Virus record (IMG/VR): IMGVR_UViG_2974521666_000001
DNA from: a virus
Direction: 5' to 3' (one strand)
DNA length: 64,000 nt
Part shown: one piece after another, positions 30,195 to 60,466 of the stretch
How the letters are laid out: each line of letters begins with the position of its first letter
How positions within the stretch are numbered: position 1 is the stretch's first letter
The notes under the pieces: generated by a model
Told to the model about the DNA's origin: nothing
Databases searched by the model: none
What the model saw: the letters and a program-made list of their open reading frames with translations, nothing else
Position numbers and translations under genes: made by a program

Positions 30195-30332
30195 CCATCC
30201 ATCCTCGGCACAGCGAGTTCAAACTCGTTGTGCCATTAGGGCACTCAAGCAAACTCAATCAGTTTGAGTGCTCCAATGGCACAATGAGTCCGGTTGAGCC
30301 ACAAAAGTTTACGGACAAAGAGGATGGTAACC
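30195..30332 (+). promoter_or_regulatory. leader of first right-arm gene: anti-motif CCATCCATCCTC plus two mutually exclusive hairpins
   Basis: Hairpin A (30207-30234) and hairpin B (30228-30284) share TTGTGCC (30228-30234). CCATCCTC (30199-30206) is complementary to GAGGATGG (30320-30327) at the start site. Confidence 0.45.
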
Positions 30333-30617
30333 ATGTTCGTCGAAACCCGCACCACTGCTGACGAAGTCAAGGCCGAGATGCTCCACGAAGTGGAGTGCTT
30401 GGCCAATCACTTGCTGAGTCAACCGCAAACGGTTGCATGGCATCCCAGTTACACCACCATCTCGAGCCTCCAAGAGGACCGGGCACGGTTTTCTGGGGCC
30501 GTGCGGCTGGTGCGACGGGTGTACGGAGACAAGTTCCCTGATGAGCTGGAGGCCAAAATCGTTCTTGCCATAGAGGCTAACGAACAGGCCATCCAGATCA
30601 AGCGCAGGAAGCGTTGA
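30333..30617 (+). CDS. hypothetical protein (94 aa)
   Basis: ATG 5 nt after AAAGAGGATGG, inside ORF 30294..30617. Confidence 0.6.
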   Translation: MFVETRTTADEVKAEMLHEVECLANHLLSQPQTVAWHPSYTTISSLQEDRARFSGAVRLVRRVYGDKFPDELEAKIVLAIEANEQAIQIKRRKR

Positions 30618-30787
30618 TGCCCACGCCTAGGCCCAACGTTAGTTGGGTAGACGGACACGGCCACCGGCTGTTCGGCACCTTCGTGTGTTGGGACCCTAAG
30701 GATTCCGACTACGCGATTTGCCGGACGGCCGTTGGCCGGTTCAAGGCACGCATCCATAAGTCAAACCTCACCTATGAATGCGGTTAG
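30617..30787 (+). CDS. hypothetical small protein (56 aa), not in ORF track
   Basis: TGATG coupling to the upstream stop. Open frame MPTPRPNVSWVDGHGHRLFGTFVCWDPKDSDYAICRTAVGRFKARIHKSNLTYECG. It fills a gap that would otherwise be noncoding. Confidence 0.4.
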   Translation: MPTPRPNVSWVDGHGHRLFGTFVCWDPKDSDYAICRTAVGRFKARIHKSNLTYECG

Positions 30788-30797
30788 GAGAAAGACG

Positions 30798-31040
30798 ATG
30801 GCACTCACCAATGTTCAAAAGGCTGATTTGGCACATGCCTTGCTGATCCAGGCAGGAAACCTTGTCGAGTACAGGGACCACTACGTGGATCAGTTGCACT
30901 CCAGCCTTCAGAATGCGACTACGGAAGACATTGCGACACAGCTCACTATCTGGCTGCAGCGTCTTCCTGGTGAATGGTGGGACTCAAGGCTTCCGAAGCC
31001 AGACGCTCTTCGAGACGGGCGAAAAGGTTACGGAAGCTAA
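30798..31040 (+). CDS. hypothetical protein (80 aa)
   Basis: ATG 30798 after an AGGAG RBS, inside ORF 30732..31040. Confidence 0.55.
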   Translation: MALTNVQKADLAHALLIQAGNLVEYRDHYVDQLHSSLQNATTEDIATQLTIWLQRLPGEWWDSRLPKPDALRDGRKGYGS

Positions 31041-31049
31041 GAGTCCAAC

Positions 31050-31089
31050 GCGCTACTGGCAGACACCCTGGTTCGAGTCCAGGGAGCGC
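31050..31089 (+). ncRNA. tRNA-like acceptor/T-arm minihelix TLM-1
   Basis: GCGCT-ACTGGCAGACA-CCCTGG-TTCGAGT-CCAGGG-AGCGC. 40 nt, 9-nt gap after stop 31040. Confidence 0.75.
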
Positions 31090-31132
31090 ACAAAGCTGTA
31101 GCGCCGCTACGGCACAACAGAGAGGATGGGAC

Positions 31133-31390
31133 ATGAGCAACTTCGAGTACCAGGCCGTTGATCCTGCTGCCGCTGCAGTCGGGTTTGGCAAGCCGTTGCT
31201 GAACAACCCCAGGTGGGCCGAGGAAAACTGTGCTGACACACTGCTTTCCGTAAAGGCCGGTGGGGCCGGTGATCTGTACCTCACAGATCAGCAGGGCAAC
31301 GTGTTCGTCAAGTTCGATTCGGGGCATCCGGATCAGGTCCACGCCGCAGCACGGTGGTTGTCGGTGTTCATACAGTCCATCGAGAGCTAA
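31133..31390 (+). CDS. hypothetical protein (85 aa)
   Basis: ATG 3 nt after AGAGGATGG, inside ORF 30974..31390. Confidence 0.6.
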   Translation: MSNFEYQAVDPAAAAVGFGKPLLNNPRWAEENCADTLLSVKAGGAGDLYLTDQQGNVFVKFDSGHPDQVHAAARWLSVFIQSIES

Positions 31391-31399
31391 AGGCTCTCA

Positions 31400-31439
31400 G
31401 CCGCACTGGCAGACATCAAGGTTCGAGTCCTTGAGCGGC
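31400..31439 (+). ncRNA. tRNA-like minihelix TLM-2
   Basis: GCCGC-ACTGGCAGACA-TCAAGG-TTCGAGT-CCTTGA-GCGGC. 40 nt, 9-nt gap after the stop. Identical to TLM-6. Confidence 0.75.
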
Positions 31440-31484
31440 ACAAAGCCATACAGTCCGTATGGCCCTTACGAGAGGATGGAAGCA

Positions 31485-31739
31485 ATGATCTGCGCACACA
31501 TTCACTACGGTCCTTTCAATTACGGACACAAGAAGTTTGACAACGTCAAGCAGGCCATGGACTACTTCGAGAACGAGGTTGCCGGTGTCGACTTTGGCAC
31601 TGGCACTTCCGAGCAGAACATGGATTTGTATGAGTCCGAATGGGATTGCCCGTGCAACGACCACATGAACTTCCATGATTACCCCATGGAGCGATTCGTG
31701 GTTGCGGCCGACGGCACTCCTGTGGCGGTGGCCATCTGA
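31485..31739 (+). CDS. hypothetical protein (84 aa)
   Basis: ATG 31485 after GAGAGGATGG (in-frame ATG 31476 is the alternative). Confidence 0.55.
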   Translation: MICAHIHYGPFNYGHKKFDNVKQAMDYFENEVAGVDFGTGTSEQNMDLYESEWDCPCNDHMNFHDYPMERFVVAADGTPVAVAI

Positions 31740-31930
31740 TGGCCGCTGAAGAGTCTGATCTTCAAACTGTGTACGACTGCTACTCAACAATGTTGGAGGC
31801 AGCAGGGGTGCCGGGTGACGAAATCGCCTGGTACCAAGAGTACATGGCCAACATCTTGGATAACGTTGGCACACAAGAAGATCTGCAAGAGGTAGTCAAA
31901 GCCATGGTGTACCTGAAAGGGAGACAGTAA
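31739..31930 (+). CDS. hypothetical protein (63 aa)
   Basis: TGATG coupling to the upstream gene. Confidence 0.55.
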   Translation: MAAEESDLQTVYDCYSTMLEAAGVPGDEIAWYQEYMANILDNVGTQEDLQEVVKAMVYLKGRQ

Positions 31931-31938
31931 GCTAAATC

Positions 31939-31978
31939 GGGGCAACGGTTTTCGGGGAGGTTCGATTCCTCCCGTCCC
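31939..31978 (+). ncRNA. tRNA-like minihelix TLM-3
   Basis: GGGGC-AACGGTTTTCG-GGGAGG-TTCGATT-CCTCCC-GTCCC. 40 nt, 8-nt gap after the stop. Confidence 0.75.
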
Positions 31979-32017
31979 ACTAGGCAACCAAAGTGGTTGC
32001 TAGAGAGGATGGGAACA

Positions 32018-32311
32018 ATGGCTACAATCAAGGCGCGCAACTTTCTCTGCCGCAACTGCCACGTGGACGTTAACGTCACCGAGTGTGGCTGCAACGCAGG
32101 CTCTTACTCAATCACCTCTTGGGATTGTGCTCAGTGCGGCATTGAGGTTGTGTCCAGCGGTGGTCGAGACGTTGACTGCTCCAAGTGCGGGGCCTGCTAC
32201 AACGGCTCCGGCCAGCGTCTTCGCAGCGATTGGCGTAGCAATCCATCGGTTTACGACGACAACGTCGGTGACCTGGAGGGCTACGAACTGCAGCACGCCA
32301 ACGACTGGTGA
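32018..32311 (+). CDS. Cys-rich (zinc-ribbon-like) protein (97 aa)
   Basis: ATG after GAGAGGATGG. Contains CRNC, CGC, CAQC and CSKCGAC pairs. Confidence 0.6.
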   Translation: MATIKARNFLCRNCHVDVNVTECGCNAGSYSITSWDCAQCGIEVVSSGGRDVDCSKCGACYNGSGQRLRSDWRSNPSVYDDNVGDLEGYELQHANDW

Positions 32312-32324
32312 CGTAATCACCGGA

Positions 32325-32364
32325 GGGCCAACGGTTTTCGTAGGGGTTCGATTCCCCTAGGCCC
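32325..32364 (+). ncRNA. tRNA-like minihelix TLM-4
   Basis: GGGCC-AACGGTTTTCG-TAGGGG-TTCGATT-CCCCTA-GGCCC. 40 nt, 13-nt gap after the stop. Confidence 0.75.
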
Positions 32365-32406
32365 GCTAGGTCGTTCGTACGGGACGACCTCACAGAAAGG
32401 ATGGAA

Positions 32407-32745
32407 ATGGCAGCACGAAAGATGAAGGTTGTCAAGTCGATTCAGGTCGAGAAGCCGACGAGGTTTGCCCGCGTTCGGAAGGGCAAGGGGCAGAACAGCA
32501 CTCGAGAGCTTCAGGCCCGGTCACTGAAGGCGGCGGCAAACCACGGTCAGCCGTGGAGCGACGACGAGGTGGCCCGAATCGTGGCCGGAATACAGAGAGA
32601 CGAAACGTCTTTCGAACTTGCGCTGGCTGTAGGACGAAGCTACTACAGCACCATGAGCGCCAGGTCACATGTGGCGTTTGCTATGCGCCACGCCAACGCC
32701 TTGGAGTTGGCCGTCAAGCAGGCAGCGCGGGCCAAGCACCACTGA
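32407..32745 (+). CDS. hypothetical protein (112 aa)
   Basis: ATG 32407 (or in-frame 32401) after GAAAGGATGG. Confidence 0.55.
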   Translation: MAARKMKVVKSIQVEKPTRFARVRKGKGQNSTRELQARSLKAAANHGQPWSDDEVARIVAGIQRDETSFELALAVGRSYYSTMSARSHVAFAMRHANALELAVKQAARAKHH

Positions 32746-32760
32746 CAACCCAATCGTGTA

Positions 32761-32801
32761 GCCCTGGTAAGGCGTACTGAGGTTCGATTCCTCAGCAGGG
32801 C
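32761..32801 (+). ncRNA. tRNA-like minihelix TLM-5
   Basis: GCCCTG-GTAAGGCGTA-CTGAGG-TTCGATT-CCTCAG-CAGGGC. 41 nt, 15-nt gap after the stop. Confidence 0.7.
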
Positions 32802-32844
32802 ACTTTGCCCGGCAAACCAGCCGGCAATTAGAGAGGATGGGAAA

Positions 32845-33012
32845 ATGGTGAATGTGTACAAGATTGACGGTTTGCAGCTGCAGGCGATCAGGGGTTATCT
32901 CAAGAACCCTGATACTCATACCCTTCGGATCATGGTTGATGAGGAGGGTGTGAAGGTCAAGTTCAATCAAGGGCCTTGGTCCCCACCACTCGGGGAACTT
33001 GAAAGGAACTGA
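32845..33012 (+). CDS. hypothetical small protein (55 aa), not in ORF track
   Basis: ATG 4 nt after GAGAGGATGG. Open frame MVNVYKIDGLQLQAIRGYLKNPDTHTLRIMVDEEGVKVKFNQGPWSPPLGELERN. Confidence 0.5.
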   Translation: MVNVYKIDGLQLQAIRGYLKNPDTHTLRIMVDEEGVKVKFNQGPWSPPLGELERN

Positions 33013-33013
33013 A

Positions 33014-33238
33014 ATGGCCGATATCCTATTGGCACATGGTGAAAGCACTTCAGGCACCAAACACACCCTGGAGATCGATCCAATCTACGGAAGTCATGAC
33101 TCAATTGATTGGCTGAAGTGGACTATCATGGGTCCCAACGGGAAACGGCACGCAAGTGTCAAGCTGACCTTGGCTGATGCCGAGGGCATTGCAAACCACC
33201 TGTTGGACATCGTAGAAGAGGCCCGTCGTAACGCATGA
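33014..33238 (+). CDS. hypothetical protein (74 aa)
   Basis: ATG 33014, 1 nt after the upstream stop, with a GAAAGGA RBS. Inside ORF 32999..33238. Confidence 0.55.
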   Translation: MADILLAHGESTSGTKHTLEIDPIYGSHDSIDWLKWTIMGPNGKRHASVKLTLADAEGIANHLLDIVEEARRNA

Positions 33239-33246
33239 CAGGGCGA

Positions 33247-33286
33247 GCCGCACTGGCAGACATCAAGGTTCGAGTCCTTGAGCGGC
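33247..33286 (+). ncRNA. tRNA-like minihelix TLM-6
   Basis: Same 40 nt as TLM-2. The 43-nt identity spans 33246-33288 and 31399-31441. 8-nt gap after the stop. Confidence 0.75.
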
Positions 33287-33333
33287 ACTAGGACAGTGGC
33301 ACGGGGCCACTGCCTTAACGAAAGAGGATGGAA

Positions 33334-34263
33334 ATGACCACCATTGAGAACAGTGTGAATGCAGTTGAGCTGATCGATCTGTCGGCAGCTTGCGAGAAGG
33401 CTGGAATCGGTGGGACAGTTCGCAATACGGAAGTTGGCACCGGTACGCTGTACGTGGTGGCCAAGCTTCCTGACGGGAACTGGGCTTTGGACTACGAAAC
33501 TGATGTGATCGACATTGCTGCTTTTCAGCAGGAGGGTTGGCTCGTTGTGTCCACGGCCACAGACGGCGAGGAGACAGAGCAGGATACCAAACCTGCTACG
33601 TACCAAGACTTCTTCGAAGGTTTGCCCACCTGGTCATACTTCTGGGACGGCCGAAACATTGACTGCCAGTACATCTTTACTGGCTGGAAGCAAAACAAGT
33701 ACGGCGACAACGTTCCTGCGTATGTCCACCACCGGTACATGACAACCAGCTTGATGTCCATCTTGGACCTGGATCACGAATGCCAGTGGGAGGCATTCAC
33801 AGTCAACGGTACGCCCAAGGAGGCCAGTCGCGATTTGCGGCAGGCAATCCGGACGATGTACTCGGCCTTGAAAGAGGCAGAGTCGTACAAGCAACTGCAT
33901 AAGGAAGAAGGTGAGCGGCTGGAGGCAGTCAAGCGTGATTTCCGAAAGCTGAACGAACACATCAATTCCTACGCTGAAGAAACCCACATGTGCGGCGACT
34001 ATGAGCGCCGTATCTACGGCTGGAACGAGACCTTCGAGGTCATGGAGCTCGAGGGCCGTGTTCGCGATTACAATGTGCCCGTACGGGTCCCTGGAGTGTT
34101 CGGGGACACTGAGGTCTGGGTTTCGGGTATCAAGGCCCGTACTCCAGAAGAGGCACGGGAACAGGTGCAGCGCATGACCGCTCAGGAAGTGCTGAACAAC
34201 CTGTATCAATCCGGTTACAGCATGCCGGAGTGGACCGTCGGCGATAGTACTCCGAGGGCCTAG
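33334..34263 (+). CDS. hypothetical protein (309 aa)
   Basis: ATG 33334 (or in-frame 33328) after AAGAGGATGG. Confidence 0.6.
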   Translation: MTTIENSVNAVELIDLSAACEKAGIGGTVRNTEVGTGTLYVVAKLPDGNWALDYETDVIDIAAFQQEGWLVVSTATDGEETEQDTKPATYQDFFEGLPTWSYFWDGRNIDCQYIFTGWKQNKYGDNVPAYVHHRYMTTSLMSILDLDHECQWEAFTVNGTPKEASRDLRQAIRTMYSALKEAESYKQLHKEEGERLEAVKRDFRKLNEHINSYAEETHMCGDYERRIYGWNETFEVMELEGRVRDYNVPVRVPGVFGDTEVWVSGIKARTPEEAREQVQRMTAQEVLNNLYQSGYSMPEWTVGDSTPRA

Positions 34264-34278
34264 CCCCAAAGCAGGGCA

Positions 34279-34318
34279 GGGTGACTGGCAGACATCAGGG
34301 TTCGAGTCCCTGACACCC
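34279..34318 (+). ncRNA. tRNA-like minihelix TLM-7
   Basis: GGGTG-ACTGGCAGACA-TCAGGG-TTCGAGT-CCCTGA-CACCC. 40 nt, 15-nt gap after the stop. Confidence 0.75.
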
Positions 34319-34363
34319 ACAAAGCCGTAGGCGTTCTACGGCCTAGCAAGAGAGGATGGAACA

Positions 34364-34597
34364 ATGCCGCTACCAAGGGGGTTCAAGTTCATACGCTGCC
34401 CCGAATGCAAACGCAAAGGTGTGTCATGTAGATTCAGCGGGCGAACCGGGGAGGACTACTGGCAATGCCGCTACTGCAGCTGGTACTGCTATGCAGGAGG
34501 GGAGGACCGGATTGACGTTGAGCGTCGACGAGCACTTGCTGCAGCCAATCCCGGTGAGCCTATATGGGTTACAGCACTGGACGATGACACACTGTAA
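34364..34597 (+). CDS. zinc-ribbon-like protein (77 aa)
   Basis: ATG 5 nt after AGAGGATGG. Contains CPEC..C and CRYCSWYC. Confidence 0.6.
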   Translation: MPLPRGFKFIRCPECKRKGVSCRFSGRTGEDYWQCRYCSWYCYAGGEDRIDVERRRALAAANPGEPIWVTALDDDTL

Positions 34598-34603
34598 CGG
34601 CAA

Positions 34604-34643
34604 GCCTGACTGGAAGGCACCGACGTTCAAGCCGTCGGCTGGC
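34604..34643 (+). ncRNA. tRNA-like minihelix TLM-8 (slightly degenerate)
   Basis: GCCTG-ACTGGAAGGCA-CCGACG-TTCAAGC-CGTCGG-CTGGC. 40 nt with one U-U mismatch in the outer stem. 6-nt gap after the stop. Confidence 0.6.
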
Positions 34644-34685
34644 GCGGGGTGAGCCACTATGGCTTACTACAAGAAAGGGGATGGA

Positions 34686-35051
34686 ATGAAGCACGTTATC
34701 GCTATTTCAGGCAATGACCTTGCGTACCTTCGCAAGGCAGCCTTGTCGGCGTTTCAAGAGGCCGGTCAGATTGGCGTACTACGCATTTACATTACCGATG
34801 ACGGTAAGCTCATGTTTGGAGCACGGGGTCACGTAACCAAAGTGATTGGTAGGCCCATTAAGGCTTCCGATGAAGAGCGCGAAATGGGTTTGAGTGCCCC
34901 AAGCGGAAATCCGTACGCCAACATTGACGACGATGAAGATGCGCAAGATGCTGCTGAGGCAGTAGGCCTCTCGCTTGAAGAACGTGTTGCACACCTGGAG
35001 GAACTGGTCAAGGGCGAGAACATCGTTGTGATCAACCTCTCAAAGTCCTAG
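34686..35051 (+). CDS. hypothetical protein (121 aa)
   Basis: ATG 34686 after AAAGGGGATGG, inside ORF 34659..35051. Confidence 0.55.
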   Translation: MKHVIAISGNDLAYLRKAALSAFQEAGQIGVLRIYITDDGKLMFGARGHVTKVIGRPIKASDEEREMGLSAPSGNPYANIDDDEDAQDAAEAVGLSLEERVAHLEELVKGENIVVINLSKS

Positions 35052-35063
35052 CAGCGCTAGGCA

Positions 35064-35106
35064 GCCGGCCACGGTTGGTTAATAGTGGTTCGAGTCCACT
35101 ACCGGC
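35064..35106 (+). ncRNA. tRNA-like minihelix TLM-9
   Basis: GCCGG-CCACGGTTGGTTAA-TAGTGG-TTCGAGT-CCACTA-CCGGC. 43 nt with a 14-nt linker. 12-nt gap after the stop. Confidence 0.7.
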
Positions 35107-35153
35107 ACGAAGGCAACAACCCGTTGCCTTACATCAAGATTCGAGGATGGAAC

Positions 35154-35555
35154 ATGAAACGTAATGTGAAAGAAGTCGTGGTTGCATTTCTTGTGACCAT
35201 GGGCCTGTTCTTCGCTCTCGCAGCAATCCACAACGCCGCCGTAACCAATGTGGCCAAGGCAGATCCAGGCGTTGGCTGCGAGACAATTCGTTGGGGTTTC
35301 CTAGGAAGCCAAAGGCGCACCATCTGCGACGGGCCGCGCAGGCCTGACGGCAGCTGGGAGCGTTTGCGTCTGATCTGGACGCCAGCGGGTTACGTGCCAC
35401 GCTACACCTACTGCGGTAGCTACTCATGCTCTTCCAGCGGTGGCTACTACCGGGAGGAGACGCTTCAGGGCAAGGAAACGTATGTGGTGTTTGACCACAA
35501 CGTGCTGCCCGATGAGCCGGGTTGGCTGCCACCGGGAACGGACATTATCCGATGA
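35154..35555 (+). CDS. secreted or membrane-anchored protein (133 aa)
   Basis: ATG 3 nt after CGAGGATGG. N-terminal hydrophobic segment VVVAFLVTMGLFFALAAI. Cys-rich mature part. Confidence 0.6.
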   Translation: MKRNVKEVVVAFLVTMGLFFALAAIHNAAVTNVAKADPGVGCETIRWGFLGSQRRTICDGPRRPDGSWERLRLIWTPAGYVPRYTYCGSYSCSSSGGYYREETLQGKETYVVFDHNVLPDEPGWLPPGTDIIR

Positions 35556-35734: not shown

Positions 35735-35742
35735 CCACAAGA

Positions 35743-35782
35743 GCCGCAATGGCATACACCCAGGTTCGAGTCCTGGGGCGGC
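35743..35782 (+). ncRNA. tRNA-like minihelix TLM-10
   Basis: GCCGC-AATGGCATACA-CCCAGG-TTCGAGT-CCTGGG-GCGGC. 40 nt, 8-nt gap after the stop. Confidence 0.75.
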
Positions 35783-35828
35783 ACGAGTCCTGAGCAATCG
35801 GCTTGGGGCACTATGAAAGAGGATGGAA

Positions 35829-36050
35829 ATGCGAGTAGCAGATGCAGTGAGGAAGACCTCTGGCATTCATCGGCTCAAGGTGGGCGAGATGTTCACCGAC
35901 GCAGATGGTGATTGGGAGGTGACCAGAGAGCCTGTGGTTGATGGCGATTGGGTCGTCGTGTACCTGAGGCCCGTGCCCTTTCACGAGGGCCAGCGCGCTA
36001 GGGCCTACCGATATCCCTTGTCAACTCAGGTGAAGATGCTGCGTAAGTAA
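35829..36050 (+). CDS. hypothetical protein (73 aa)
   Basis: ATG 35829 (or in-frame 35823) after AAGAGGATGG. Confidence 0.55.
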   Translation: MRVADAVRKTSGIHRLKVGEMFTDADGDWEVTREPVVDGDWVVVYLRPVPFHEGQRARAYRYPLSTQVKMLRK

Positions 36051-36094
36051 AGCACTCTGCTGTGGCTACGGGGATTGTGCCAAGTAGAGAGATA

Positions 36095-36159
36095 CCCTGC
36101 AACGGTTTTGGCGTGTTCGAGGGTTACACACCAACAGAGGTTCGATTCCTCTGGCAGGG
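36095..36159 (+). ncRNA. expanded tRNA-like element TLM-11 (extra arm in linker)
   Basis: CCCTGC-[34-nt linker AACGGTTTTGGCGTGTTCGAGGGTTACACACCAA]-CAGAGG-TTCGATT-CCTCTG-GCAGGG. The linker can form GGCGTG/CACACC around a TTCGAGG-containing loop. Confidence 0.6.
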
Positions 36160-36202
36160 ACGACGGTGGGCCACCAGGTCTACCGAACGAAAGGGGATGG
36201 AA

Positions 36203-36619
36203 ATGCGTACGTTTACCTTTGGGACCCAGTATGTCCCAGAGACAAAGGCAGTCCTGAAGTGGGGCAAGTACGCCGACGGCAGCACTGCACTACGTGTTGT
36301 GTCGGAGTACGGTGAGCCTCTGGCTACGGCCACAGTCTGCCTGCGCAACTACAACCTTCAGCCGGGTAAAGGCAATGTCTTCATCTACGGGGACTACAGC
36401 GAACATGTCGGAGTGTTCGAGGCCCTGCGGAAGGCCGGGATTGTCGGTGACCCTGTGAACCGAATTCCCATGGGAGGCTTTGGCGCTTTCGCGTACGAGG
36501 CTCCCCTGCTGTGGAGCGAGCACGAGCCAACCTGTGAGGGTATGGCAGACGTGGACTACCACACCCAAGTTGATGCCATGCTCGAACGAGTGGCACAGCA
36601 AGACAACAAGTCCCAGTAG
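36203..36619 (+). CDS. hypothetical protein (138 aa)
   Basis: ATG 36203 (or 36197) after AAAGGGGATGG. The upstream part of ORF 36062.. covers TLM-11 and is rejected. Confidence 0.55.
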   Translation: MRTFTFGTQYVPETKAVLKWGKYADGSTALRVVSEYGEPLATATVCLRNYNLQPGKGNVFIYGDYSEHVGVFEALRKAGIVGDPVNRIPMGGFGAFAYEAPLLWSEHEPTCEGMADVDYHTQVDAMLERVAQQDNKSQ

Positions 36620-36627
36620 ACTGGGCA

Positions 36628-36667
36628 GCCCGAAAGGCATACACGCTGGTTCGAGTCCAGCGCGGGC
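36628..36667 (+). ncRNA. tRNA-like minihelix TLM-12
   Basis: GCCCG-AAAGGCATACA-CGCTGG-TTCGAGT-CCAGCG-CGGGC. 40 nt, 8-nt gap after the stop. Confidence 0.75.
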
Positions 36668-36709
36668 ACGAGCGCCATAGTGGCGTATCAAGAAAGGGGA
36701 TGGACTGAG

Positions 36710-36916
36710 TTGCATAGAGAAACGGAATTCGTGCTCGCCCGCGAGCTCAGCGATGGCAGCCTACCTCACATGCCACCGGCAGATGAGCTGCCACATCGTG
36801 GCCGAATCACAAGGATTCTCAACGACTCTGGGGTGTTGACAATCGAGTGTGAGGACGGTATGCTCAGCCGAGGGATGAACGCCCCGGTTGAACGGTACAA
36901 GAGGGAGGCTCAGTGA
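36710..36916 (+). CDS. hypothetical protein (68 aa)
   Basis: TTG 36710, 6 nt after AAAGGGGATGG. The track start GTG 36680 lies inside the spacer hairpin. Confidence 0.45.
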   Translation: MHRETEFVLARELSDGSLPHMPPADELPHRGRITRILNDSGVLTIECEDGMLSRGMNAPVERYKREAQ

Positions 36917-37038: not shown

Positions 37039-37050
37039 TACAGCACAGGA

Positions 37051-37090
37051 GTCCGACTGGCAGACATCAGGGTTCGAGTCCCTGACGGAC
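37051..37090 (+). ncRNA. tRNA-like minihelix TLM-13
   Basis: GTCCG-ACTGGCAGACA-TCAGGG-TTCGAGT-CCCTGA-CGGAC. 40 nt. The core is identical to TLM-7 with a compensated outer stem. Confidence 0.75.
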
Positions 37091-37148
37091 ACGACTTGGA
37101 GCCACGAGGGAGACTCCAAGCACCACAACAGAAAGAGGATGGGAAACA

Positions 37149-38345
37149 ATGGGCGCAGAAACCATGGAGTGGTACAACAACTTCTGCCTGATCGGGCACA
37201 CCAATCAGCGTGGAAAGAGTTGGCACTATATGGAGTCCATGCAGGGAGAGGAGCCGAATCATTACCCCGAGGGCATCCCGTATGACGATGTTGTACGGCG
37301 GCTATTCAATTGGAAGCCAATGCTTACCCGTACGGCAAACATGATTCCATGTGAGTTGCTACGGGATGAGGCAGGACAGCCCTTGACCGACGACCAGGGA
37401 CGCCGTCGCTACGAACCTGAGCCGTCAGTATGGGTTCAGCGTGTGGACAGCAACGGCAACCCAGTGTTCCACGAGGGCCGTCCGGTCAACGTTCCCATGA
37501 AACTGGTAGAGGTCCATGACAAACGGGGCCTGGTCCGTAGCGACAACTACCTGGAGCTGGGGCACCCCGGCAAGAACTACAAGATCCACGACTACGAGGA
37601 GTGGCTCTTGCAGTTGCTATCCAACGTGATTGGGGACACTCTCGACATTTGGTCAGCAATCCTGTTGCGCAATGGCGCTCAGGCCTGTGTCCAGGTGGCT
37701 CTTCCTGAGACGGCTCACGACAGCACAACTGGAATGGACTTTGTTCCATACGTCCACTGCTATACGAGCCTAGACAGTAGTCTGGCTACCACTTTCGCTG
37801 GCCAAACGCTGTTGATCGTGTGCGACAACACGATGACTGCGGCCAACGCAAGAGCAGCCAAGGCAGGGCGGCAGTACAAGGCACGTCACACGTCCGGAAG
37901 CCTTGAGACCCACAAGATCTCTGAGGTCCGGCAAGCCCTGTCGATTATTCACCAAACCGCAGACAGCTCTATGGAATTCTTCCACAAGCTGGCTGCCATT
38001 GAAGTGCCCAACAAGAAGTGGATTGAGGTGCTAGACATCATCATTCCACCGGGTGATCCCAACAAGGACAGCACCAGGACCGTTCGTGGTCGTGAGTCCA
38101 AGAGGGAACACCTGAACAGCGTGTACCAAAGTGACCCTATGGCGAATACCTGGAAAGGTACTGGCCTTGGGGTGGTACAGGCAATCAACACCTACGCAAC
38201 CCACTACGCGCCACTGCGCGGCCGCTCCCGTGTTCAGGGCAACGCTGCCAAGCTGGTGGACGGTGAGTTTGCCAAGGTGGACAGCAAGAGCGTGCAGGCC
38301 CTTGCTCAAGTGATGGATATGCCAGAGTTGTTGACTACCAACTAG
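37149..38345 (+). CDS. hypothetical protein (398 aa), possibly DUF932/TIGR03299-like phage-plasmid protein
   Basis: ATG after AAGAGGATGG. The family guess is from memory of its size and N-terminal features only. Confidence 0.35.
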   Translation: MGAETMEWYNNFCLIGHTNQRGKSWHYMESMQGEEPNHYPEGIPYDDVVRRLFNWKPMLTRTANMIPCELLRDEAGQPLTDDQGRRRYEPEPSVWVQRVDSNGNPVFHEGRPVNVPMKLVEVHDKRGLVRSDNYLELGHPGKNYKIHDYEEWLLQLLSNVIGDTLDIWSAILLRNGAQACVQVALPETAHDSTTGMDFVPYVHCYTSLDSSLATTFAGQTLLIVCDNTMTAANARAAKAGRQYKARHTSGSLETHKISEVRQALSIIHQTADSSMEFFHKLAAIEVPNKKWIEVLDIIIPPGDPNKDSTRTVRGRESKREHLNSVYQSDPMANTWKGTGLGVVQAINTYATHYAPLRGRSRVQGNAAKLVDGEFAKVDSKSVQALAQVMDMPELLTTN

Positions 38346-38353
38346 TCTGGTGC

Positions 38354-38393
38354 GGGTGACTGGCAGCCACCGGGGTTCAAGGCCCCGGCACCC
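38354..38393 (+). ncRNA. tRNA-like minihelix TLM-14
   Basis: GGGTG-ACTGGCAGCCA-CCGGGG-TTCAAGG-CCCCGG-CACCC. 40 nt, 8-nt gap after the stop. Last copy of the array. Confidence 0.7.
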
Positions 38394-38565
38394 ACTTACT
38401 CGTGATGGATAACAGCCTGGGTTACTAGCCTGAGCATCTCAGTGTTAGTCCTACGGCTATCTCATTTTTCGTGCCAAGCAGGCTCTCGTGTGTTATGATC
38501 CGGGGCAGGGTTAGGGCCTAGGCCCGACGCCCTAGACTCCCTACGGAACACACAGAGGATGGCCC

Positions 38566-53739: not shown

Positions 53740-53746
53740 GCCGGTG

Positions 53747-53786
53747 GGGTGAGCGGCACACACCAAGGTTCGAGTCCTTGGCACCC
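53747..53786 (+). ncRNA. tRNA-like minihelix TLM-15 (orphan copy)
   Basis: GGGTG-AGCGGCACACA-CCAAGG-TTCGAGT-CCTTGG-CACCC. 40 nt, 7-nt gap after stop 53739. Confidence 0.7.
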
Positions 53787-53820
53787 ACGGTTCAACAACC
53801 AAGTAACCCTAGGAGATACA

Positions 53821-55143: not shown

Positions 55144-55159
55144 AAGGGGTAGGAAGACT

Positions 55160-56284: not shown

Positions 56285-56484
56285 GTAACCGAATCACTCG
56301 GGACCACAGCTACAAGTTCACGGTGTACGGATATCCGAGCGTTGACGAACTAGTGGCAGAGTTGCAAAGGGCCAAAGAATCAGTGTCTCCCAACGGAGAG
56401 CAGAGCACCGTAGATATCCAAAGCCACAATGCAATAGACCAGCGTGAACGGTCGTACGTTACCATAACCGTTAGGAGAGGCTAG
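56281..56484 (+). CDS. hypothetical protein (67 aa)
   Basis: ATGA coupling. Confidence 0.5.
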   Translation: MSNRITRDHSYKFTVYGYPSVDELVAELQRAKESVSPNGEQSTVDIQSHNAIDQRERSYVTITVRRG

Positions 56485-57535: not shown

Positions 57536-57573
57536 TGGCTACCGGGCGGCGCGACCACTAGATCCAGTGGTTG

Positions 57574-57605
57574 CGTCGTCCCAGGTCACGGGGTAGGCTG
57601 ACCTG
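57574..57605. promoter_or_regulatory. hairpin built from CCCAGGTCA / TGACCTG sites upstream of primase gene
   Basis: CAGGTCA (57582-57588) pairs with TGACCTG (57599-57605). The same site family recurs at 60.5-60.8 kb. Confidence 0.45.
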
Positions 57606-57718
57606 TTCACTGCCCTAACCTCTAACGATATGAGACGCCCTGAGCGTCAACCTCACGGCCGAAAACACAGTCACCTAGCGGATCTAGCGCGACGGCGCGC
57701 GAAAGAGGATGGACAAAC

Positions 57719-60466
57719 TTGAACGCACCCAAGAACATCGGAGCGGCAGCACCATTCGCGAAAGCGGCCTTGGAGTACACCTTGAAGGGGTGGAACGTTC
57801 TGCCGTTGCCTCCCAACAAGAAGAAATCACCACCCAGCAAAGAGGACGACGAACAGGGTCTAGGGTTTACGGGGCGCAACGGCCGACTTGCCACACGCGA
57901 TGACATAGATGCCTGGATACAGGACAAGCGGTGGCGCAAGGGCAACATTGCGGTACGGCCCGGCAACGAGGTCACCAACGACGGTGAGGCCTACGAGGTC
58001 ATAGGGATTGACGTTGACGACTACGACGGGAAGAGCGGCGCGGCTCACCTGGAAGAGCTGATCAAAACCTATGGGCCACTACCAAATACGTGGACAAGCT
58101 CGGCGCGCTCGGACGGCAAGAGCGGCATCCGCTGGTTCCTGACTCCAGTTGGCTACGAGTACATGGGCAAGCCGGTGCTGCCATCCACAGGCCGCGCCAG
58201 CGATAGTATCGAAATCGTACAGAGAGTGCACCGTTACGGCCTGGTGTTCCCCTCGATGCACCCCGACGGCATGCAATACCGTTGGTACGATAGGGGACAG
58301 GCCCCTGACGGCATCCACGTCAACGACCGTATCCCTAGGGTGCAAGAGCTGGCTGTACTGCCGGAGCGCTGGTGGAAGTTCTTGACTCGCAACGGCGTTG
58401 CCAACGCAGGTGGCGCTGTGATCGACATGCAGAGCACCAATGCACAGCTACGCAACTGGCAGAAGAAGCGCTGGGTCGACGGTGAAGACATGTGCGACAT
58501 CATGACCAACGCCCTCAACCGGCACCTGGAAGACGTGGACAGTGCCAGCGACCACCACGAGCCGCTTATCCGTGCGCACTGGAGCCTGTTGCGCCTAGGG
58601 GCGGAAGGACACACAGGCTGGGCCACAGCCTGCCACGTTCTCGAGCAGAGCTGGGCGGATCGTGTAGCGGCAGATCAAGTTCGGAGTGTTGCTGAAACCA
58701 AGTACGAGATTGCCCGGTCCCGCTACGGCACGCTGCGAAAGATCAAGGGCGAGTACGTTCAGTTCAAGCGCAAAGGCCTAGAGTACCTAGAGACTCTGGA
58801 TCCCTGTGAGTGCCGTCGCAACTGGGAGCCTCCCAAGCAACGCAAACCTCCTAAGAGGCCTACGCAATACGAGCGCAACGAGGACGGCAATGCACAGCAC
58901 TTCCTGCATCTTAACCGTGGCAACGTGCGGTTTGTCCCCAACTATCCTGAGTCCCAAGGCGGTAGGTGGATGCTGTTCAGAGACGGCCGTTGGGTGGTGG
59001 ACAACAAGGAAACCCTAGTGCGCCATATGTTCCGACGCGTCAAAACCAGGCAGCAACGGGATGCTCAGCGCCGGTTACAGCTGGCTGCTGCTGCTGTGGC
59101 TGCCGCCGGTGGTACAGCTGCCGCTACGCCTGCGCAGAAGGCAGAGCTGGCAGAGGCCAGAGCGTGGGTGGCGTTCGCGCTTGAGAGCGGCAACAAGGCC
59201 CGTGTGAGCAACAGCTTGGCTCAGGCCCAAAGCTTTCCGGACATTGCACTGTTGTACGAAGAGCTGGACAACAACCCAATGTTGCTTCCAGTGGCCAACG
59301 GGGTGATCAGGTTCCACACCAGGGAAGAGGTGCTGGCTGGAGCCAAACCCTTTGAGTGGGTACAAGATCCAGACGTGATCAAGCACGAGCTGGTCACGCA
59401 GAACACGCATGTGCCGTACATTCCGTTGCGAGAGCAGAAAGACCACCCCGACGCTGAGGTTCGCGAAGGCTACAAACGGTTCTGGGAGTACATGAACAAG
59501 TTCCTGCGCAGCCAGCTTGGTAAAGAGGCGTGGGAGTACACCCTTAAGCTACTAGGGGTTTCGATCCTCGGCGTGAACACCAAAAAGGCTGTGTTCCTAG
59601 TGGGTTTGCCACACACCGGCAAGAGCACCCTGCAGAACATGATGGACCACGCCCTAGGGGACCTATCGATTTGGCGCGAACCAGCCGTATTCGAGGACAC
59701 AACGTTCAAGTCCGCGCTGGCAGAGGCCCTGTCTCGCAGGGTCATGATGGTGGGAGAACTGGGCCAAAAGCATATAGACGCAGGCCTATTCAAGCGCATC
59801 ACAGGTGGAGACGAGGTGTCGTGCCAGCTCAAGAACATCAACAAGCCGGTGACGCTGAAGCCTAGGTGTACCATCATCTCTGGCTGCAACCAGGCCCCAG
59901 AGGTGCCAGACGTGGACGAAGCGACAAAGGAACGCTTTGTGGTCGTACCCTTTAGGCACCAGGTCACCGACGAGGAGCGCGACCCCAACGCCATTGACGA
60001 TCTGCCTGTGCAGTGCCGGTTTGCCATGCTAGCAACGTTGGTAGAGTTCGCCTCTCGTGGTTTGGTGGAGGGCGTTCACATCGTGCCCGATGAGCTGCAG
60101 TTTGAGACTAAGGAATTCGTGTCCAGTCTGAGCGAGCTGTCGGACTTCCTGAAGGAGACAGTGGTCCCGTCGCCACCTAGTGCCTGGAAGAAGTACGCAC
60201 GCAATGACCGTCTGGACGTGGAGAACCCCAAGCCACGGTGGCCCGACGAGCTGTGCCTTGGAGATCGAGACTTGTACAAACAGTACGAAAGATGGTGCAC
60301 ATCCAACGGCATCGCGCCAAGCGAGAAGCTTAGCAAGACTAAGTTCACACGCAAGCTGAAGGACAGTGGTTGGGTGCAGGACGGCAGCTGGACAGCGAAC
60401 AACCAACGGCGATGGCTTGGTTGGAGTTTCGCACCAACCGTTGCAAGGGTGAAGCGGGCCGACTGA
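57719..60466 (+). CDS. bifunctional primase-polymerase / SF3 (D5-like) helicase
   Basis: TTG 6 nt after AAGAGGATGG. Prim-pol motifs GWNVLPLPP and IGIDVDDYD. Walker A GLPHTGKST and Walker B MMVGE. Confidence 0.8.
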   Translation: MNAPKNIGAAAPFAKAALEYTLKGWNVLPLPPNKKKSPPSKEDDEQGLGFTGRNGRLATRDDIDAWIQDKRWRKGNIAVRPGNEVTNDGEAYEVIGIDVDDYDGKSGAAHLEELIKTYGPLPNTWTSSARSDGKSGIRWFLTPVGYEYMGKPVLPSTGRASDSIEIVQRVHRYGLVFPSMHPDGMQYRWYDRGQAPDGIHVNDRIPRVQELAVLPERWWKFLTRNGVANAGGAVIDMQSTNAQLRNWQKKRWVDGEDMCDIMTNALNRHLEDVDSASDHHEPLIRAHWSLLRLGAEGHTGWATACHVLEQSWADRVAADQVRSVAETKYEIARSRYGTLRKIKGEYVQFKRKGLEYLETLDPCECRRNWEPPKQRKPPKRPTQYERNEDGNAQHFLHLNRGNVRFVPNYPESQGGRWMLFRDGRWVVDNKETLVRHMFRRVKTRQQRDAQRRLQLAAAAVAAAGGTAAATPAQKAELAEARAWVAFALESGNKARVSNSLAQAQSFPDIALLYEELDNNPMLLPVANGVIRFHTREEVLAGAKPFEWVQDPDVIKHELVTQNTHVPYIPLREQKDHPDAEVREGYKRFWEYMNKFLRSQLGKEAWEYTLKLLGVSILGVNTKKAVFLVGLPHTGKSTLQNMMDHALGDLSIWREPAVFEDTTFKSALAEALSRRVMMVGELGQKHIDAGLFKRITGGDEVSCQLKNINKPVTLKPRCTIISGCNQAPEVPDVDEATKERFVVVPFRHQVTDEERDPNAIDDLPVQCRFAMLATLVEFASRGLVEGVHIVPDELQFETKEFVSSLSELSDFLKETVVPSPPSAWKKYARNDRLDVENPKPRWPDELCLGDRDLYKQYERWCTSNGIAPSEKLSKTKFTRKLKDSGWVQDGSWTANNQRRWLGWSFAPTVARVKRAD

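What the first reader, a model, noticed from the sequence alone, without database searches (positions are those of the whole stretch)
30319..57721. Frame-independent start-associated motif AGAGGATGG at 16 gene starts, forming a fixed module with the minihelix and a spacer hairpin
Thirteen exact GAGGATGG and three near copies (AAGGATGG and GGGGATGG x2) end 2-7 nt before the chosen start codons of 16 genes. The embedded ATGs are at 30324, 31126, 31476, 32009, 32401, 32837, 33328, 34356, 35147, 35823, 36197, 36700, 37139, 38559, 44142 and 57709.

The embedded ATG is in frame with the gene in 7 cases. In the other 9 it is out of frame or stops immediately. The motif is therefore conserved at the nucleotide level, not as coding sequence.

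Structural and lysis genes use other RBS types (GAAAGGTGA, AGGAG).

Within the array the order is always the same: stop, minihelix, a 6-9 bp hairpin of unrelated sequence, a purine-rich tract with the motif, then the start. Examples of the spacer hairpin are 31096-31112, 31445-31463, 33294-33312, 34324-34342 and 35111-35129.

Only the GAGG part fits the anti-SD. The invariant ATGG extension is unexplained. It recalls the start-associated sequences reported for some mycobacteriophage clusters, but the sequence is different.
Basis: partly seen in the sequence, partly recalled or inferred. Interest (0 to 1): 0.6.

Follow-up and report, generated by a model that had tools for sequence, protein, structure and literature searches.

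The report
Standard ribosome-binding motif in phage cassettes
A mycobacteriophage puts the same short sequence, RRGGATGG, just before the start of 17 early genes, as the ribosome-binding end of a repeated cassette (tRNA-like minihelix, hairpin, motif); this looks like a natural way to cut one long transcript into uniformly translated messages.

Summary
The window is Mycobacterium phage Send513 (Cluster R). All 17 plus-strand RRGGATGG copies (13 exact GAGGATGG) end 1-6 nt before a start codon. At 13 consecutive junctions the motif closes a fixed cassette: stop, tRNA-like minihelix (covariation-supported), a hairpin of arbitrary sequence, an A-rich linker, the motif, then the start.

The same cassette and an invariant GGATGG occur in the distantly related phages MrMiyagi, Fowlmouth and Cuke. 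Of 284 minihelices in other viral contigs, 281 lack GGATGG and are followed instead by GAGAGGA or GGAGGA.

AGARAGGA-U-GG can pair with all ten 3'-terminal nucleotides of 16S rRNA if the U is bulged. So only the identity of the U, and of the following AA, remains unexplained.

Best reading: this is a standardised strong Shine-Dalgarno site on mRNAs released by tRNA-type processing. That step is inferred, not shown. The motif resembles the Cluster K start-associated sequences but is not a member of that family. I found no description in Rfam or in the searchable literature.

The parts
30320..30327 (+). Motif GAGGATGG before gp43, the first gene of the early array. The likely start is ATG 30333; Send513 annotates the embedded ATG 30324.
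   Evidence: Weiss13 annotators chose the equivalent of 30333. The motif is predicted to pair with CCATCCTC at 30199-30206.
31048..31135 (+). Cassette before gp46: minihelix 31048-31094, hairpin 31095-31113, motif 31122-31129, start ATG 31133.
31398..31487 (+). Cassette before gp47: minihelix 31398-31444, hairpin 31445-31463, motif 31472-31479, start 31485. A 3' hairpin at 31382-31398 spans the gp46 stop codon.
31937..32020 (+). Cassette before gp49: minihelix 31937-31983, hairpin 31980-32003, motif 32005-32012, start 32018.
32323..32409 (+). Cassette before gp50: minihelix 32323-32369, hairpin 32365-32393, motif AAGGATGG 32397-32404, start 32407.
32760..32847 (+). Cassette before gp51: minihelix about 32760-32806 with a 6-bp acceptor stem (the covariance-model hit is partial, 32776-32795), hairpin 32805-32827, motif 32833-32840, start 32845.
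33245..33336 (+). Cassette before gp53: minihelix 33245-33291, hairpin 33290-33315, motif 33324-33331, start 33334.
34277..34366 (+). Cassette before a 77-aa CxxC...CxxC ORF (34364-34597): minihelix 34277-34323, hairpin 34324-34342, motif 34352-34359, start 34364.
   Evidence: The ORF matches phrog_23077 over 1-77 of 77 positions, E=3.5e-58. Rope annotates this ORF.
34602..34688 (+).
35062..35156 (+). Cassette before gp56: minihelix 35062-35111, hairpin 35110-35130, motif 35143-35150, start ATG 35154. The annotated GTG 35085 lies inside the minihelix.
35741..35831 (+). Cassette before gp58: minihelix 35741-35787, hairpin 35787-35809, motif 35819-35826, start 35829.
   Evidence: phrog_16434 is matched over 1-73 of 73 positions from 35829.
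36096..36205 (+). Cassette before gp59: minihelix with an extra arm at about 36096-36163, hairpin 36161-36189, motif GGGGATGG 36193-36200, start 36203. The annotated GTG 36062 lies upstream of the minihelix.
36626..36712 (+). Cassette before gp60: minihelix 36626-36672, hairpin 36670-36689, motif GGGGATGG 36696-36703, start TTG 36710.
37049..37151 (+). Cassette before gp61: minihelix 37049-37095, hairpin 37095-37120, motif 37135-37142, start 37149.
38352..38398 (+). Minihelix just after the gp61 stop codon. The next motif lies 157 nt downstream.
   Evidence: 42.5 bits; weak mascRNA-like Rfam match
38555..38562 (+). Motif GAGGATGG before gp62 (start 38566).
44138..44145 (+). Motif before gp69, the exonuclease gene (start 44152), directly after the GOLLD RNA. 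The stretch 44137-44147 is an 11-nt perfect complement of 43036-43046.
57705..57712 (+). Motif before gp89, the primase gene (start TTG 57719), preceded by small hairpins and no minihelix.
53745..53791 (+). Minihelix between gp78 and gp79 that is not followed by the motif. The ribosome-binding site there is CTAGGAGATACA and the likely start is GTG 53822.
30185..30208 (+). Leader element ACAACGTTTTCCATCCATCCTCGG. It contains the exact complements of GGATGGAA and of GAGGATGG.
   Evidence: 24 of 24 nt are identical in Send513, MrMiyagi, Cuke and Fowlmouth. It pairs with the gp43 motif in the minimum-free-energy fold, z=-7.45. An alternative upstream partner appears in the consensus fold.

Best explanation
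RRGGAUGG is the ribosome-binding site of a standardised intergenic expression cassette.

**Shown**
- Thirteen consecutive early-gene junctions in Send513 share one layout: stop codon (often inside a small 3' hairpin), tRNA-like minihelix, 3-5 nt, a 7-11 bp hairpin of unrelated sequence, an A-rich linker, RRGGAUGG, 1-6 nt, start codon.
- The minihelix has a 5-bp acceptor-like stem, an 11-nt bulge carrying a GG, a 6-bp T stem, a UUCGAGU loop, and then A-C.
- The purine tract plus motif (AGARAGGA-U-GG) is complementary to all ten 3'-terminal nucleotides of actinobacterial 16S rRNA if the U is bulged.
- The spacing to the start fits a Shine-Dalgarno helix that ends at the last G.
- The embedded AUG abuts the Shine-Dalgarno sequence, is frame-independent, and is best read as a by-product rather than a start.

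**Inferred**
- The polycistronic early transcript is cut at each minihelix by the host tRNA-processing enzymes: RNase P on the 5' side, and RNase Z or an equivalent after the discriminator-like A.
- The released monocistronic mRNAs begin 3-4 nt before a protective hairpin.
- All of them carry the same strong ribosome-binding site, which gives uniform, context-independent translation of unrelated small early genes.

**Not explained**
The invariant U, and the AA that follows in the sister lineage, are not explained by rRNA pairing. They point to an additional constraint that is still unidentified.
For: **Start association.** All 17 + strand copies lie 1-6 nt upstream of starts, and only at genes that follow a noncoding gap of at least 33 nt, never at overlapping or coupled starts.

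**Pairing with 16S rRNA.**
- Predicted duplex energy with GAUCACCUCCUUUCU is -12.6 kcal/mol with the U bulged, and -10.4 when TGG is replaced.
- Motif genes have stronger and more uniform predicted Shine-Dalgarno pairing than the other 78 genes: -11.3 +/- 2.0 against -8.9 +/- 2.9, P=0.002.
- The 16S 3' end was confirmed in Mycobacterium, Nocardia, Rhodococcus and Streptomyces genomes.

**Minihelix structure.**
- Within Send513, 100% of 99 cells are paired and 8 of 11 pairs show compensatory changes.
- Across 66 copies, 98.9% of cells are paired and 10 of 11 pairs covary.

**Hairpin.** It starts 3-5 nt after the minihelix in 13 of 13 Send513 cassettes and in the related phages.

**Conservation.**
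- GGATGG follows 32 of 33 strict minihelices in Send513, MrMiyagi, Cuke and Fowlmouth.
- These phages share only 35-70% amino-acid identity in the early proteins they share, and the hairpins between them are unrelated in sequence.
- Against Rope and Weiss13 there are no real substitutions in 120 motif nucleotides, while 4.5% of cassette positions vary. Indels change the motif-to-start spacing.

**Gene prediction.** Starts predicted from the motif give better gene models than the Send513 annotation.
Against: - No experimental data were available: no RNA ends, toeprints or ribosome profiling. Processing at the minihelix and use of the second AUG are therefore inferred.
- Pairing with 16S does not explain why the bulged base is always U, since A or C give the same predicted energy.
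- It also does not explain why the same cassette in Streptomyces-type phages lacks TGG although the host anti-SD sequence is identical.
- Predicted accessibility of the motif is no higher than that of its surroundings: unpaired probability 0.38-0.42 against 0.40-0.47.
- The acceptor-like stem has 5 bp, not 7, and no CCA follows it. Whether RNase P or RNase Z accepts it is untested.
Confidence: 0.6

Rival explanations
1. The motif is a recognition tag for a dedicated trans-acting partner, either a phage or host RNA-binding protein or a complementary phage RNA. That partner would co-regulate the tagged early mRNAs, as has been proposed (but not shown) for the Cluster K start-associated sequences. 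The Shine-Dalgarno pairing would be only part of the story.
For: - The U, and the following AA, are invariant although 16S pairing does not require them.
- The TGG extension is confined to two related M. smegmatis phage lineages, although the host anti-SD is the same as in Streptomyces.
- The exact complement CCATCCTC occurs three times on the + strand, always in the 8.9% of the window that is noncoding.
- One of those copies sits in a 24-nt leader block that is identical across lineages and also contains TTCCATCC, the complement of GGATGGAA.
- MrMiyagi keeps a CCATCCTCC element before its exonuclease gene even though that gene lacks the motif.
Against: - No RNA-binding or RNase domain was found in the Send513 early proteins by Pfam or PHROGs.
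- The leader anti-motif has sufficient cis explanations: it can pair with the gp43 ribosome-binding site and with an upstream purine stretch.
- Three copies on one strand is not itself an excess, since about 1.15 are expected.
- No anti-motif was seen in the partial loci of other lineages.
Confidence: 0.2
2. The motif is an ordinary Shine-Dalgarno sequence with no further function. Its uniformity would reflect descent of all cassettes from one ancestral cassette and occasional gene conversion, with ATGG as a frozen accident.
For: - One viral contig (L079) has cassettes whose hairpin and ribosome-binding site are nearly identical, ACGACGGCGCACCGTGCGCCGACAGAGAGGACAYCATG. This shows that concerted evolution of such cassettes does happen.
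- The GAGAGGA part is shared with Streptomyces phage cassettes.
Against: - In Send513 the hairpins and acceptor stems next to the motif share no sequence, so the cassettes are old. Gene conversion would homogenise more than 8 nt.
- The motif survives between lineages whose orthologous cassettes are otherwise unalignable.
- It also survives in the strongly diverged gp59 cassette of Rope.
- There are no substitutions in 120 nt where about 5 are expected.
Confidence: 0.13
3. The embedded AUG is itself functional. It could be an alternative start, the start of a tiny upstream ORF that couples to the main start, or the 5' end of a leaderless mRNA made by cleavage just before AUGG.
For: - An AUG is present at every site.
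- Send513 annotates it as the start of gp43 and gp58.
- In the Fowlmouth-type phages many sites read AUG-GAA-ACA-UGA, with the stop overlapping the main AUG.
Against: - The embedded AUG is in frame in only 7 of 16 sites in Send513 and 14 of 53 overall.
- Out-of-frame reading runs up to 139 codons.
- The Shine-Dalgarno sequence abuts the AUG with no spacer.
- Indels between close relatives change the offset.
- The 3-codon upstream ORFs need only an A after the main ATG. Such A-first second codons looked common among the non-motif genes of these phages, but I did not count them.
- PHROG profiles for gp58 and for the 77-aa protein start at the second ATG.
Confidence: 0.04
4. The motif is a DNA-level site, such as an asymmetric operator like the Cluster A stoperators, or a methylase or restriction target (GGATG).
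For: - The motif has a single orientation and an intergenic location, as stoperators do.
- Send513 encodes an HTH protein (gp50) and several methyltransferases.
Against: - The position is locked 1-6 nt before start codons and overlaps the Shine-Dalgarno sequence.
- The sites lie inside what look like continuous transcription units, not at promoter-like sites.
- No repressor or integrase is annotated.
- The site is only 8 nt long and asymmetric.
Confidence: 0.03

Closest known systems
Start-associated sequences (SAS) and extended SAS of Cluster K mycobacteriophages (Pope et al. 2011, PMC3203893)
   Same: - A short asymmetric repeat in 11-19 copies, all in one orientation, 3-8 nt upstream of start codons.
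- Restricted to non-structural genes.
- A preference for ATG starts.
- Contains a Shine-Dalgarno core plus conserved positions that cannot pair with 16S rRNA.
- Often preceded by a second conserved element.
- Function unproven.
   Different: - The sequence is unrelated: RRGGATGG against GGGATAGGAGCCC.
- The upstream partner here is a covarying RNA structure (tRNA-like minihelix plus hairpin). For the 17-bp ESAS repeats the authors found no support for RNA pairing and favoured DNA binding.
Extended Shine-Dalgarno sequences of actinobacterial mRNAs (anti-SD CCUCCUUUCU-3')
   Same: A purine-rich stretch complementary to the 16S 3' tail, placed a few nucleotides before the start codon.
   Different: - One nucleotide (U) interrupts the helix and is invariant.
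- The sequence is far more uniform than a Shine-Dalgarno sequence needs to be. The same cassette in Streptomyces-type phages shows ordinary Shine-Dalgarno variation.
tRNA punctuation of mitochondrial transcripts, plant mitochondrial t-elements, and MALAT1 mascRNA (from general knowledge)
   Same: Acceptor-plus-T-arm mimics placed between functional RNAs, where RNase P and RNase Z define the ends. One Send513 copy gives a weak mascRNA match.
   Different: - Here the elements are in a bacteriophage, in arrays of 13-15 copies.
- They have only a 5-bp acceptor stem and an 11-nt bulge in place of the D and anticodon arms.
- They are coupled to a fixed hairpin and ribosome-binding site.
- Cleavage has not been shown.
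T4 RegB and RegA control of early mRNAs (from general knowledge)
   Same: A short sequence at the ribosome-binding sites of many phage early genes marks them for common post-transcriptional control.
   Different: No RegB- or RegA-like protein or any RNase was detected in Send513. The motif differs, and control of this kind is only a hypothesis here.

Membership tests
Shine-Dalgarno ribosome-binding site | Complementary to the 3' end of the host 16S rRNA | tested here: met
   AGAGAGGA-U-GG pairs with all 10 terminal nucleotides, with one G-U pair and one bulged U, at -12.6 kcal/mol. The 16S 3' end GGATCACCTCCTTTCT was confirmed in a Mycobacterium genome and three other actinobacterial genera. 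M. smegmatis itself was not retrieved.
Shine-Dalgarno ribosome-binding site | Lies a few nucleotides upstream of the start codon | tested here: met
   There are 1-6 nt between the last G and the start, or 5-10 nt from GGA.
Shine-Dalgarno ribosome-binding site | Directs 30S binding and initiation at the downstream codon | not testable with these tools
   This needs toeprinting, ribosome profiling or reporter assays.
Cluster K start-associated sequence (SAS) | 13-bp consensus GGGATAGGAGCCC with at most two deviations | tested here: not met
   The motif here is RRGGATGG. The consensus is taken from PMC3203893.
Cluster K start-associated sequence (SAS) | Many copies, one orientation, 3-8 bp before the starts of non-structural genes, with a preference for ATG | tested here: met
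   There are 17 + strand copies between 30.3 and 57.7 kb, all at starts: 15 ATG and 2 TTG.
Cluster K start-associated sequence (SAS) | Conserved positions beyond what 16S pairing explains | tested here: met
   The U, and the AA in the sister lineage, are invariant. U to A or C is energetically neutral.
Cluster K start-associated sequence (SAS) | Extended SAS: 17-bp imperfect inverted repeats upstream, without RNA covariation | tested here: not met
   The upstream elements here are RNA helices with compensatory changes.
tRNA-like processing element (minihelix, t-element, mascRNA type) | Acceptor-like stem stacked on a T arm with the T-loop consensus | tested here: met
   There are 12 exact GGTTCGA[GT]TCC copies in the array. 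Fifteen covariance-model hits were found in the window.
tRNA-like processing element (minihelix, t-element, mascRNA type) | Helices maintained by compensatory substitutions | tested here: met
   98.9% of 629 cells are paired, 10 of 11 pairs covary, and slid controls give 32-57% paired.
tRNA-like processing element (minihelix, t-element, mascRNA type) | Cleaved by RNase P and RNase Z | not testable with these tools
   Only indirect support is available: an A-C follows the acceptor stem, no CCA is encoded, and the downstream hairpin starts 3-5 nt later.
Genuine tRNA gene | Full cloverleaf with an anticodon arm | tested here: not met
   ARAGORN finds no tRNA in the window. No Rfam tRNA hit was found. 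An 11-nt bulge replaces the D and anticodon arms.
Stoperator-type DNA operator (Cluster A phages) | Asymmetric sites bound by a phage repressor in a temperate phage, not tied to start-codon distance | tested here: not met
   No repressor or integrase is annotated. The sites are locked 1-6 nt before starts. Binding was not tested.

The most novel reading that the evidence does not exclude
GGAUGG(AA) is an address label, not just a Shine-Dalgarno sequence. It would mark a regulon of phage early mRNAs for a dedicated trans-acting partner. The best candidate is the pyrimidine element UUUUCCAUCCAUCCUC in the conserved structured leader RNA upstream of gp43. That element is an exact complement of the motif and is identical across diverged lineages. 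An unidentified early protein is the alternative. Either partner would give the phage translation control that is partly orthogonal to the host's.
Probability: 0.12. Interest if true: 0.85.

Novelty: new variant of a known kind. Interest (0 to 1): 0.66.

Why it matters
- **A natural insulated expression cassette.** If the inferred mechanism holds, these phages solve a problem that synthetic biologists solve with ribozyme or tRNA insulators and standard ribosome-binding sites. Each small early gene would carry its own processing signal, 5' stabiliser and uniform ribosome-binding site. Expression would then not depend on neighbouring genes, and genes could be shuffled as cassettes.
- **A second case of start-associated sequences.** This case is more tractable than Cluster K, whose sequences have stayed unexplained since 2011. 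The partner elements here are clearly RNA structures, and the unexplained part is reduced to one bulged U. That makes a direct mutational test possible.
- **Practical annotation value.** The motif pinpoints true start codons. Seven Send513 gene starts or gene models look wrong on this basis.
- **A widespread, uncurated RNA element.** The minihelix family is common in actinophage contigs but is not in Rfam.

Tried and rejected
1. **CsrA-like binder.** From memory, the motif resembles the CsrA SELEX consensus RUACARGGAUGU. Pfam found no CsrA, RNA-binding or RNase domain in gp43-68 and gp73-98; only CDGP (gp56) and DUF932 (gp61) appeared. PHROGs gave only families of unknown function.
2. **A second rRNA pairing site, like the T7 epsilon enhancer.** No CCATC or CATCC occurs anywhere in the 16S rRNA of a Mycobacterium, Nocardia, Rhodococcus or two Streptomyces genomes.
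3. **A host difference in the anti-SD sequence as the reason for TGG.** The 16S 3' ends are identical.
4. **A constant cis partner inside each cassette.** CCATCC is absent from the array. It occurs only in the leader and once inside the gp43 coding sequence.
5. **Upstream-ORF or reinitiation coupling.** Frames and upstream-ORF lengths show no signal beyond base composition.
6. **Higher predicted accessibility of the motif.** Inconclusive.
7. **RNAduplex scan of the anti-motifs against all ribosome-binding sites.** Too noisy to use.
8. **Rfam.** No family covers the minihelix or the leader. Only GOLLD passes threshold.
9. **An anti-motif in other lineages with their own standard ribosome-binding site.** None was found in the partial loci held.
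10. **Literature.** No description of the motif or cassette was found. Hatfull's 2014 review could not be read, so an earlier mention in a subscription review cannot be excluded.

Full report
**Identity and annotation**

The window is the last 64,000 bases of Mycobacterium phage Send513 (Cluster R, genus Papyrusvirus). Window coordinate equals record coordinate minus 7547. The region 30.3-38.6 kb holds the small early genes gp43-gp62.

**Checking the observation**

- GAGGATGG occurs 13 times on the + strand and 3 times on the - strand, against about 2.3 expected for both strands.
- RRGGATGG occurs 17 times on + and 4 on -, against 9.06 expected.
- There is a 17th site at 34677-34684.
- Every + strand copy ends 1-6 nt before a start codon: 15 ATG and 2 TTG.
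In the wider set of related phages it is in frame in 14 of 53 sites.
- Between close relatives, small indels change the distance between motif and start while the motif stays intact.
- The motif is therefore a nucleotide-level signal.
- It occurs only at genes that follow a noncoding gap, never at overlapping or coupled starts. Structural and lysis genes use other ribosome-binding sites.

**Anatomy of the module**

Twelve exact copies of the tRNA T-loop sequence GGTTCGA[GT]TCC lie between 31.07 and 37.07 kb. Each sits in a minihelix with these parts:
- a 5-bp acceptor-like stem;
- an 11-nt bulge that always contains GG (ACTGGCAGACA or AACGGTTTTCG);
- a 6-bp T stem and a 7-nt loop;
- the 3' acceptor strand, followed by A-C.

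Within Send513 alone, all 99 pair cells are standard pairs and 8 of 11 pairs show compensatory changes. A covariance model built from nine copies finds 15 copies in the window. Three of these are new: 34602-34648, 38352-38398 and 53745-53791. It finds 66 copies in seven sources, with 98.9% pairing and 10 of 11 pairs covarying.

A hairpin of 7-11 bp and unrelated sequence begins 3-5 nt after the minihelix in all 13 array cassettes. An A-rich linker, the motif, and the start codon follow. About eight cassettes also have a small hairpin just before the minihelix, often spanning the upstream stop codon.

ARAGORN finds no tRNA, and Rfam has no family for the element. One copy gives a sub-threshold mascRNA match.

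There are exceptions to the fixed order:
- gp43, gp62, gp69 and gp89 have the motif without an adjacent minihelix;
- the minihelix at 53745 is followed by AGGAG instead of the motif.

**Related sequences**

MrMiyagi, Fowlmouth and Cuke are M. smegmatis phages of about 49% G+C. They share only 35-70% amino-acid identity with Send513 in the early proteins they share with it. They carry the same cassette array, with the consensus ACAACAGAAAAGGATGGAA-N-ATG.
- The invariant core there is GGATGGAA.
- The two bases before it vary (AA, GA, GG, TA), so GAGG is not the conserved part.
- Orthologous cassettes, such as those before gp61 and MrMiyagi gene 53, are unalignable except for the T loop and CAACAGAAA-GAGGATGG-AAA.

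The minihelix itself is much more widespread.
- It occurs in Streptomyces phages such as Yosif, Nanodon and phiCAM.
- It occurs in at least 120 IMG/VR stretches, and that scan was truncated. There are up to 12 copies per locus.
- In a strict structural scan, GGATGG follows 32 of 33 minihelices in the four mycobacteriophages but only 3 of 284 elsewhere. In the other contigs the shared element is (C)GAGAGGA or ACAGGAGGA, followed by 3-6 nt and the start.

Among Cluster R genomes, 4.5% of cassette positions vary between Send513, Rope and Weiss13. There are no real changes in 120 motif nucleotides or in 132 T-loop nucleotides. Stems show compensatory changes.

**What the motif is**

The 16S rRNA 3' end is GGAUCACCUCCUUUCU in Mycobacterium, Nocardia, Rhodococcus and Streptomyces. 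The duplex results are:
- AGAGAGGA-U-GG pairs with all ten terminal nucleotides when the U is bulged, at -12.6 kcal/mol.
- Replacing TGG gives -10.4.
- Deleting the U gives -16.4.
- Changing U to A or C changes nothing.

Motif genes have stronger and more uniform predicted Shine-Dalgarno pairing than the other genes. Counted from the last G, the spacer to the start is 1-6 nt, with a mode near 4. This matches the spacer after GGA in the TGG-less cassettes of other lineages.

So the A and both G of 'ATGG' belong to the Shine-Dalgarno helix. The embedded AUG has no spacer after the Shine-Dalgarno sequence and is frame-independent, which fits a by-product. The open questions are why the bulged base is always U, why AA follows in the sister lineage, and why only these mycobacteriophage lineages have the extension although the host anti-SD is the same.

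**How it most likely works**

The anatomy is shown. The rest is inferred.
- A polycistronic early transcript would be cut at each minihelix by RNase P on the 5' side and by RNase Z or an equivalent after the discriminator-like A. No CCA is encoded, as is also the case for MrMiyagi's own tRNA-Gln.
- Each downstream mRNA would then begin 3-4 nt before a hairpin. From general knowledge of 5'-end-dependent decay, this is the arrangement that protects against it.
- All these mRNAs would carry the same strong ribosome-binding site.

This is a natural counterpart of tRNA punctuation in mitochondria and of synthetic insulator-plus-standard-RBS designs.

**Rivals**

1. *A trans-acting partner reads the motif.* The exact complement CCATCCTC occurs three times on the + strand, always in the 8.9% of the window that is noncoding.
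   - One copy lies in a 24-nt leader block (30185-30208) that is identical in all four lineages. The block also contains TTCCATCC, the complement of GGATGGAA.
   - However, this element has cis explanations. It pairs with the gp43 motif in a very stable fold (z=-7.45). In the consensus fold it pairs with an upstream purine stretch, which gives an anti-anti-SD / anti-SD / SD layout.
   - No RNA-binding protein was found.
2. *Pure descent or gene conversion.* One contig (L079) shows that concerted evolution of such cassettes occurs. In Send513, though, the sequence next to the motif is unrelated between cassettes.
3. *A functional embedded AUG.* The frame data argue against it.
4. *A DNA-level site.* The lock to start codons argues against it.

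**Comparison with what is known**

The nearest described thing is the Cluster K start-associated sequence (PMC3203893).
- It behaves the same way in position, orientation, gene class and ATG preference, and in having conserved positions beyond rRNA pairing.
- The consensus is different, and the upstream partner here is clearly an RNA structure.
- This motif therefore works like a start-associated sequence but is not a member of that family.

I found no description of the motif or cassette in Rfam or in the searchable literature. Reviews I could not open might mention it.

**Verdict**

The feature is real, strongly non-random and conserved. It is best read as a standardised extended Shine-Dalgarno site that closes a tRNA-like processing cassette, with one unexplained invariant nucleotide. 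I class it as a new variant of a known kind, with interest of about 0.66.

Noticed in passing
window 43658-44118 (+), with 43036-43046 and 44137-44147: A GOLLD RNA (Rfam RF02032, 180 bits, full length) lies in the 1.16-kb noncoding gap before the gp69 exonuclease gene. TACCATCCTCT at 43036-43046 is an 11-nt perfect complement of AGAGGATGGTA at 44137-44147, which is the gp69 ribosome-binding site, so the two could close the whole structured region. MrMiyagi has no GOLLD but keeps a CCATCCTCC element before its exonuclease gene (L191:3966).
   Followed up: partly
window about 29940-30209 (+): A noncoding block of roughly 270 nt upstream of gp43 is far better conserved with MrMiyagi and Cuke than the proteins are. 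It folds into a consensus structure in which 16 pairs keep pairing through changes on both sides, and it matches no Rfam family. It ends in the anti-motif UUUUCCAUCCAUCCUC. That element can pair either with an upstream GAUGARGGCUGAAA stretch or with the gp43 ribosome-binding site, which looks like a translational riboregulator.
   Followed up: partly
window 34364-34597, 34686, 35154, 36203, 30333, 35829, 53822: Several Send513 gene calls look wrong. Annotated gp54 (34491-34652) should be the 77-aa CxxC...CxxC ORF at 34364-34597, which matches phrog_23077 over its full length and is annotated in Rope. The annotated starts of gp55 (34659), gp56 (GTG 35085), gp59 (GTG 36062) and gp79 (GTG 53749) lie inside or upstream of a minihelix or hairpin. 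gp43 and gp58 are annotated at the embedded ATG.
   Followed up: yes
loci L069, L070, L071-L190 (Streptomyces phages and IMG/VR contigs): The tRNA-like minihelix is a widespread viral intergenic element: at least 120 IMG/VR stretches in a truncated scan, 192 covariance-model hits in 80 loci, and arrays of up to 12. It is nearly always followed by a hairpin and a ribosome-binding site, and it is not in Rfam. One lineage (L079) has almost identical whole cassettes, which indicates concerted evolution.
   Followed up: partly
L069 and L070 (for example L069 about 2190-2225 and 5480-5520): In the Streptomyces phages Yosif and Nanodon, a promoter-like repeat directly precedes many minihelices. Its forms are TTGACACAC...GTGAGAGTGTAGC and GTGTGATAGTGTCGCAA.
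   Followed up: no
L191 about 4155-4172, 15350-15365 and 19498-19513; window about 60884-60901: Several later genes of MrMiyagi use a second recurrent ribosome-binding site, AGGGTCGAAA followed by the start codon. Send513 gp91 has the similar AGAGAGGGATCGAAAATG.
   Followed up: no
window 31382-31398, and just upstream of the minihelices at 32323, 33245, 34277, 35062, 35741 and 36626: Small hairpins lie directly before the minihelix and often contain the stop codon of the upstream gene, for example GAGAGCTAAAGGCTCTC. They could act as 3'-end stabilisers after cleavage.
   Followed up: partly
window 60767-60774 (+): A third CCATCCTC lies in the 295-nt gap between gp90 and gp91. No partner motif is nearby, and in the fold of that gap the gp91 ribosome-binding site pairs elsewhere.
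   Followed up: partly
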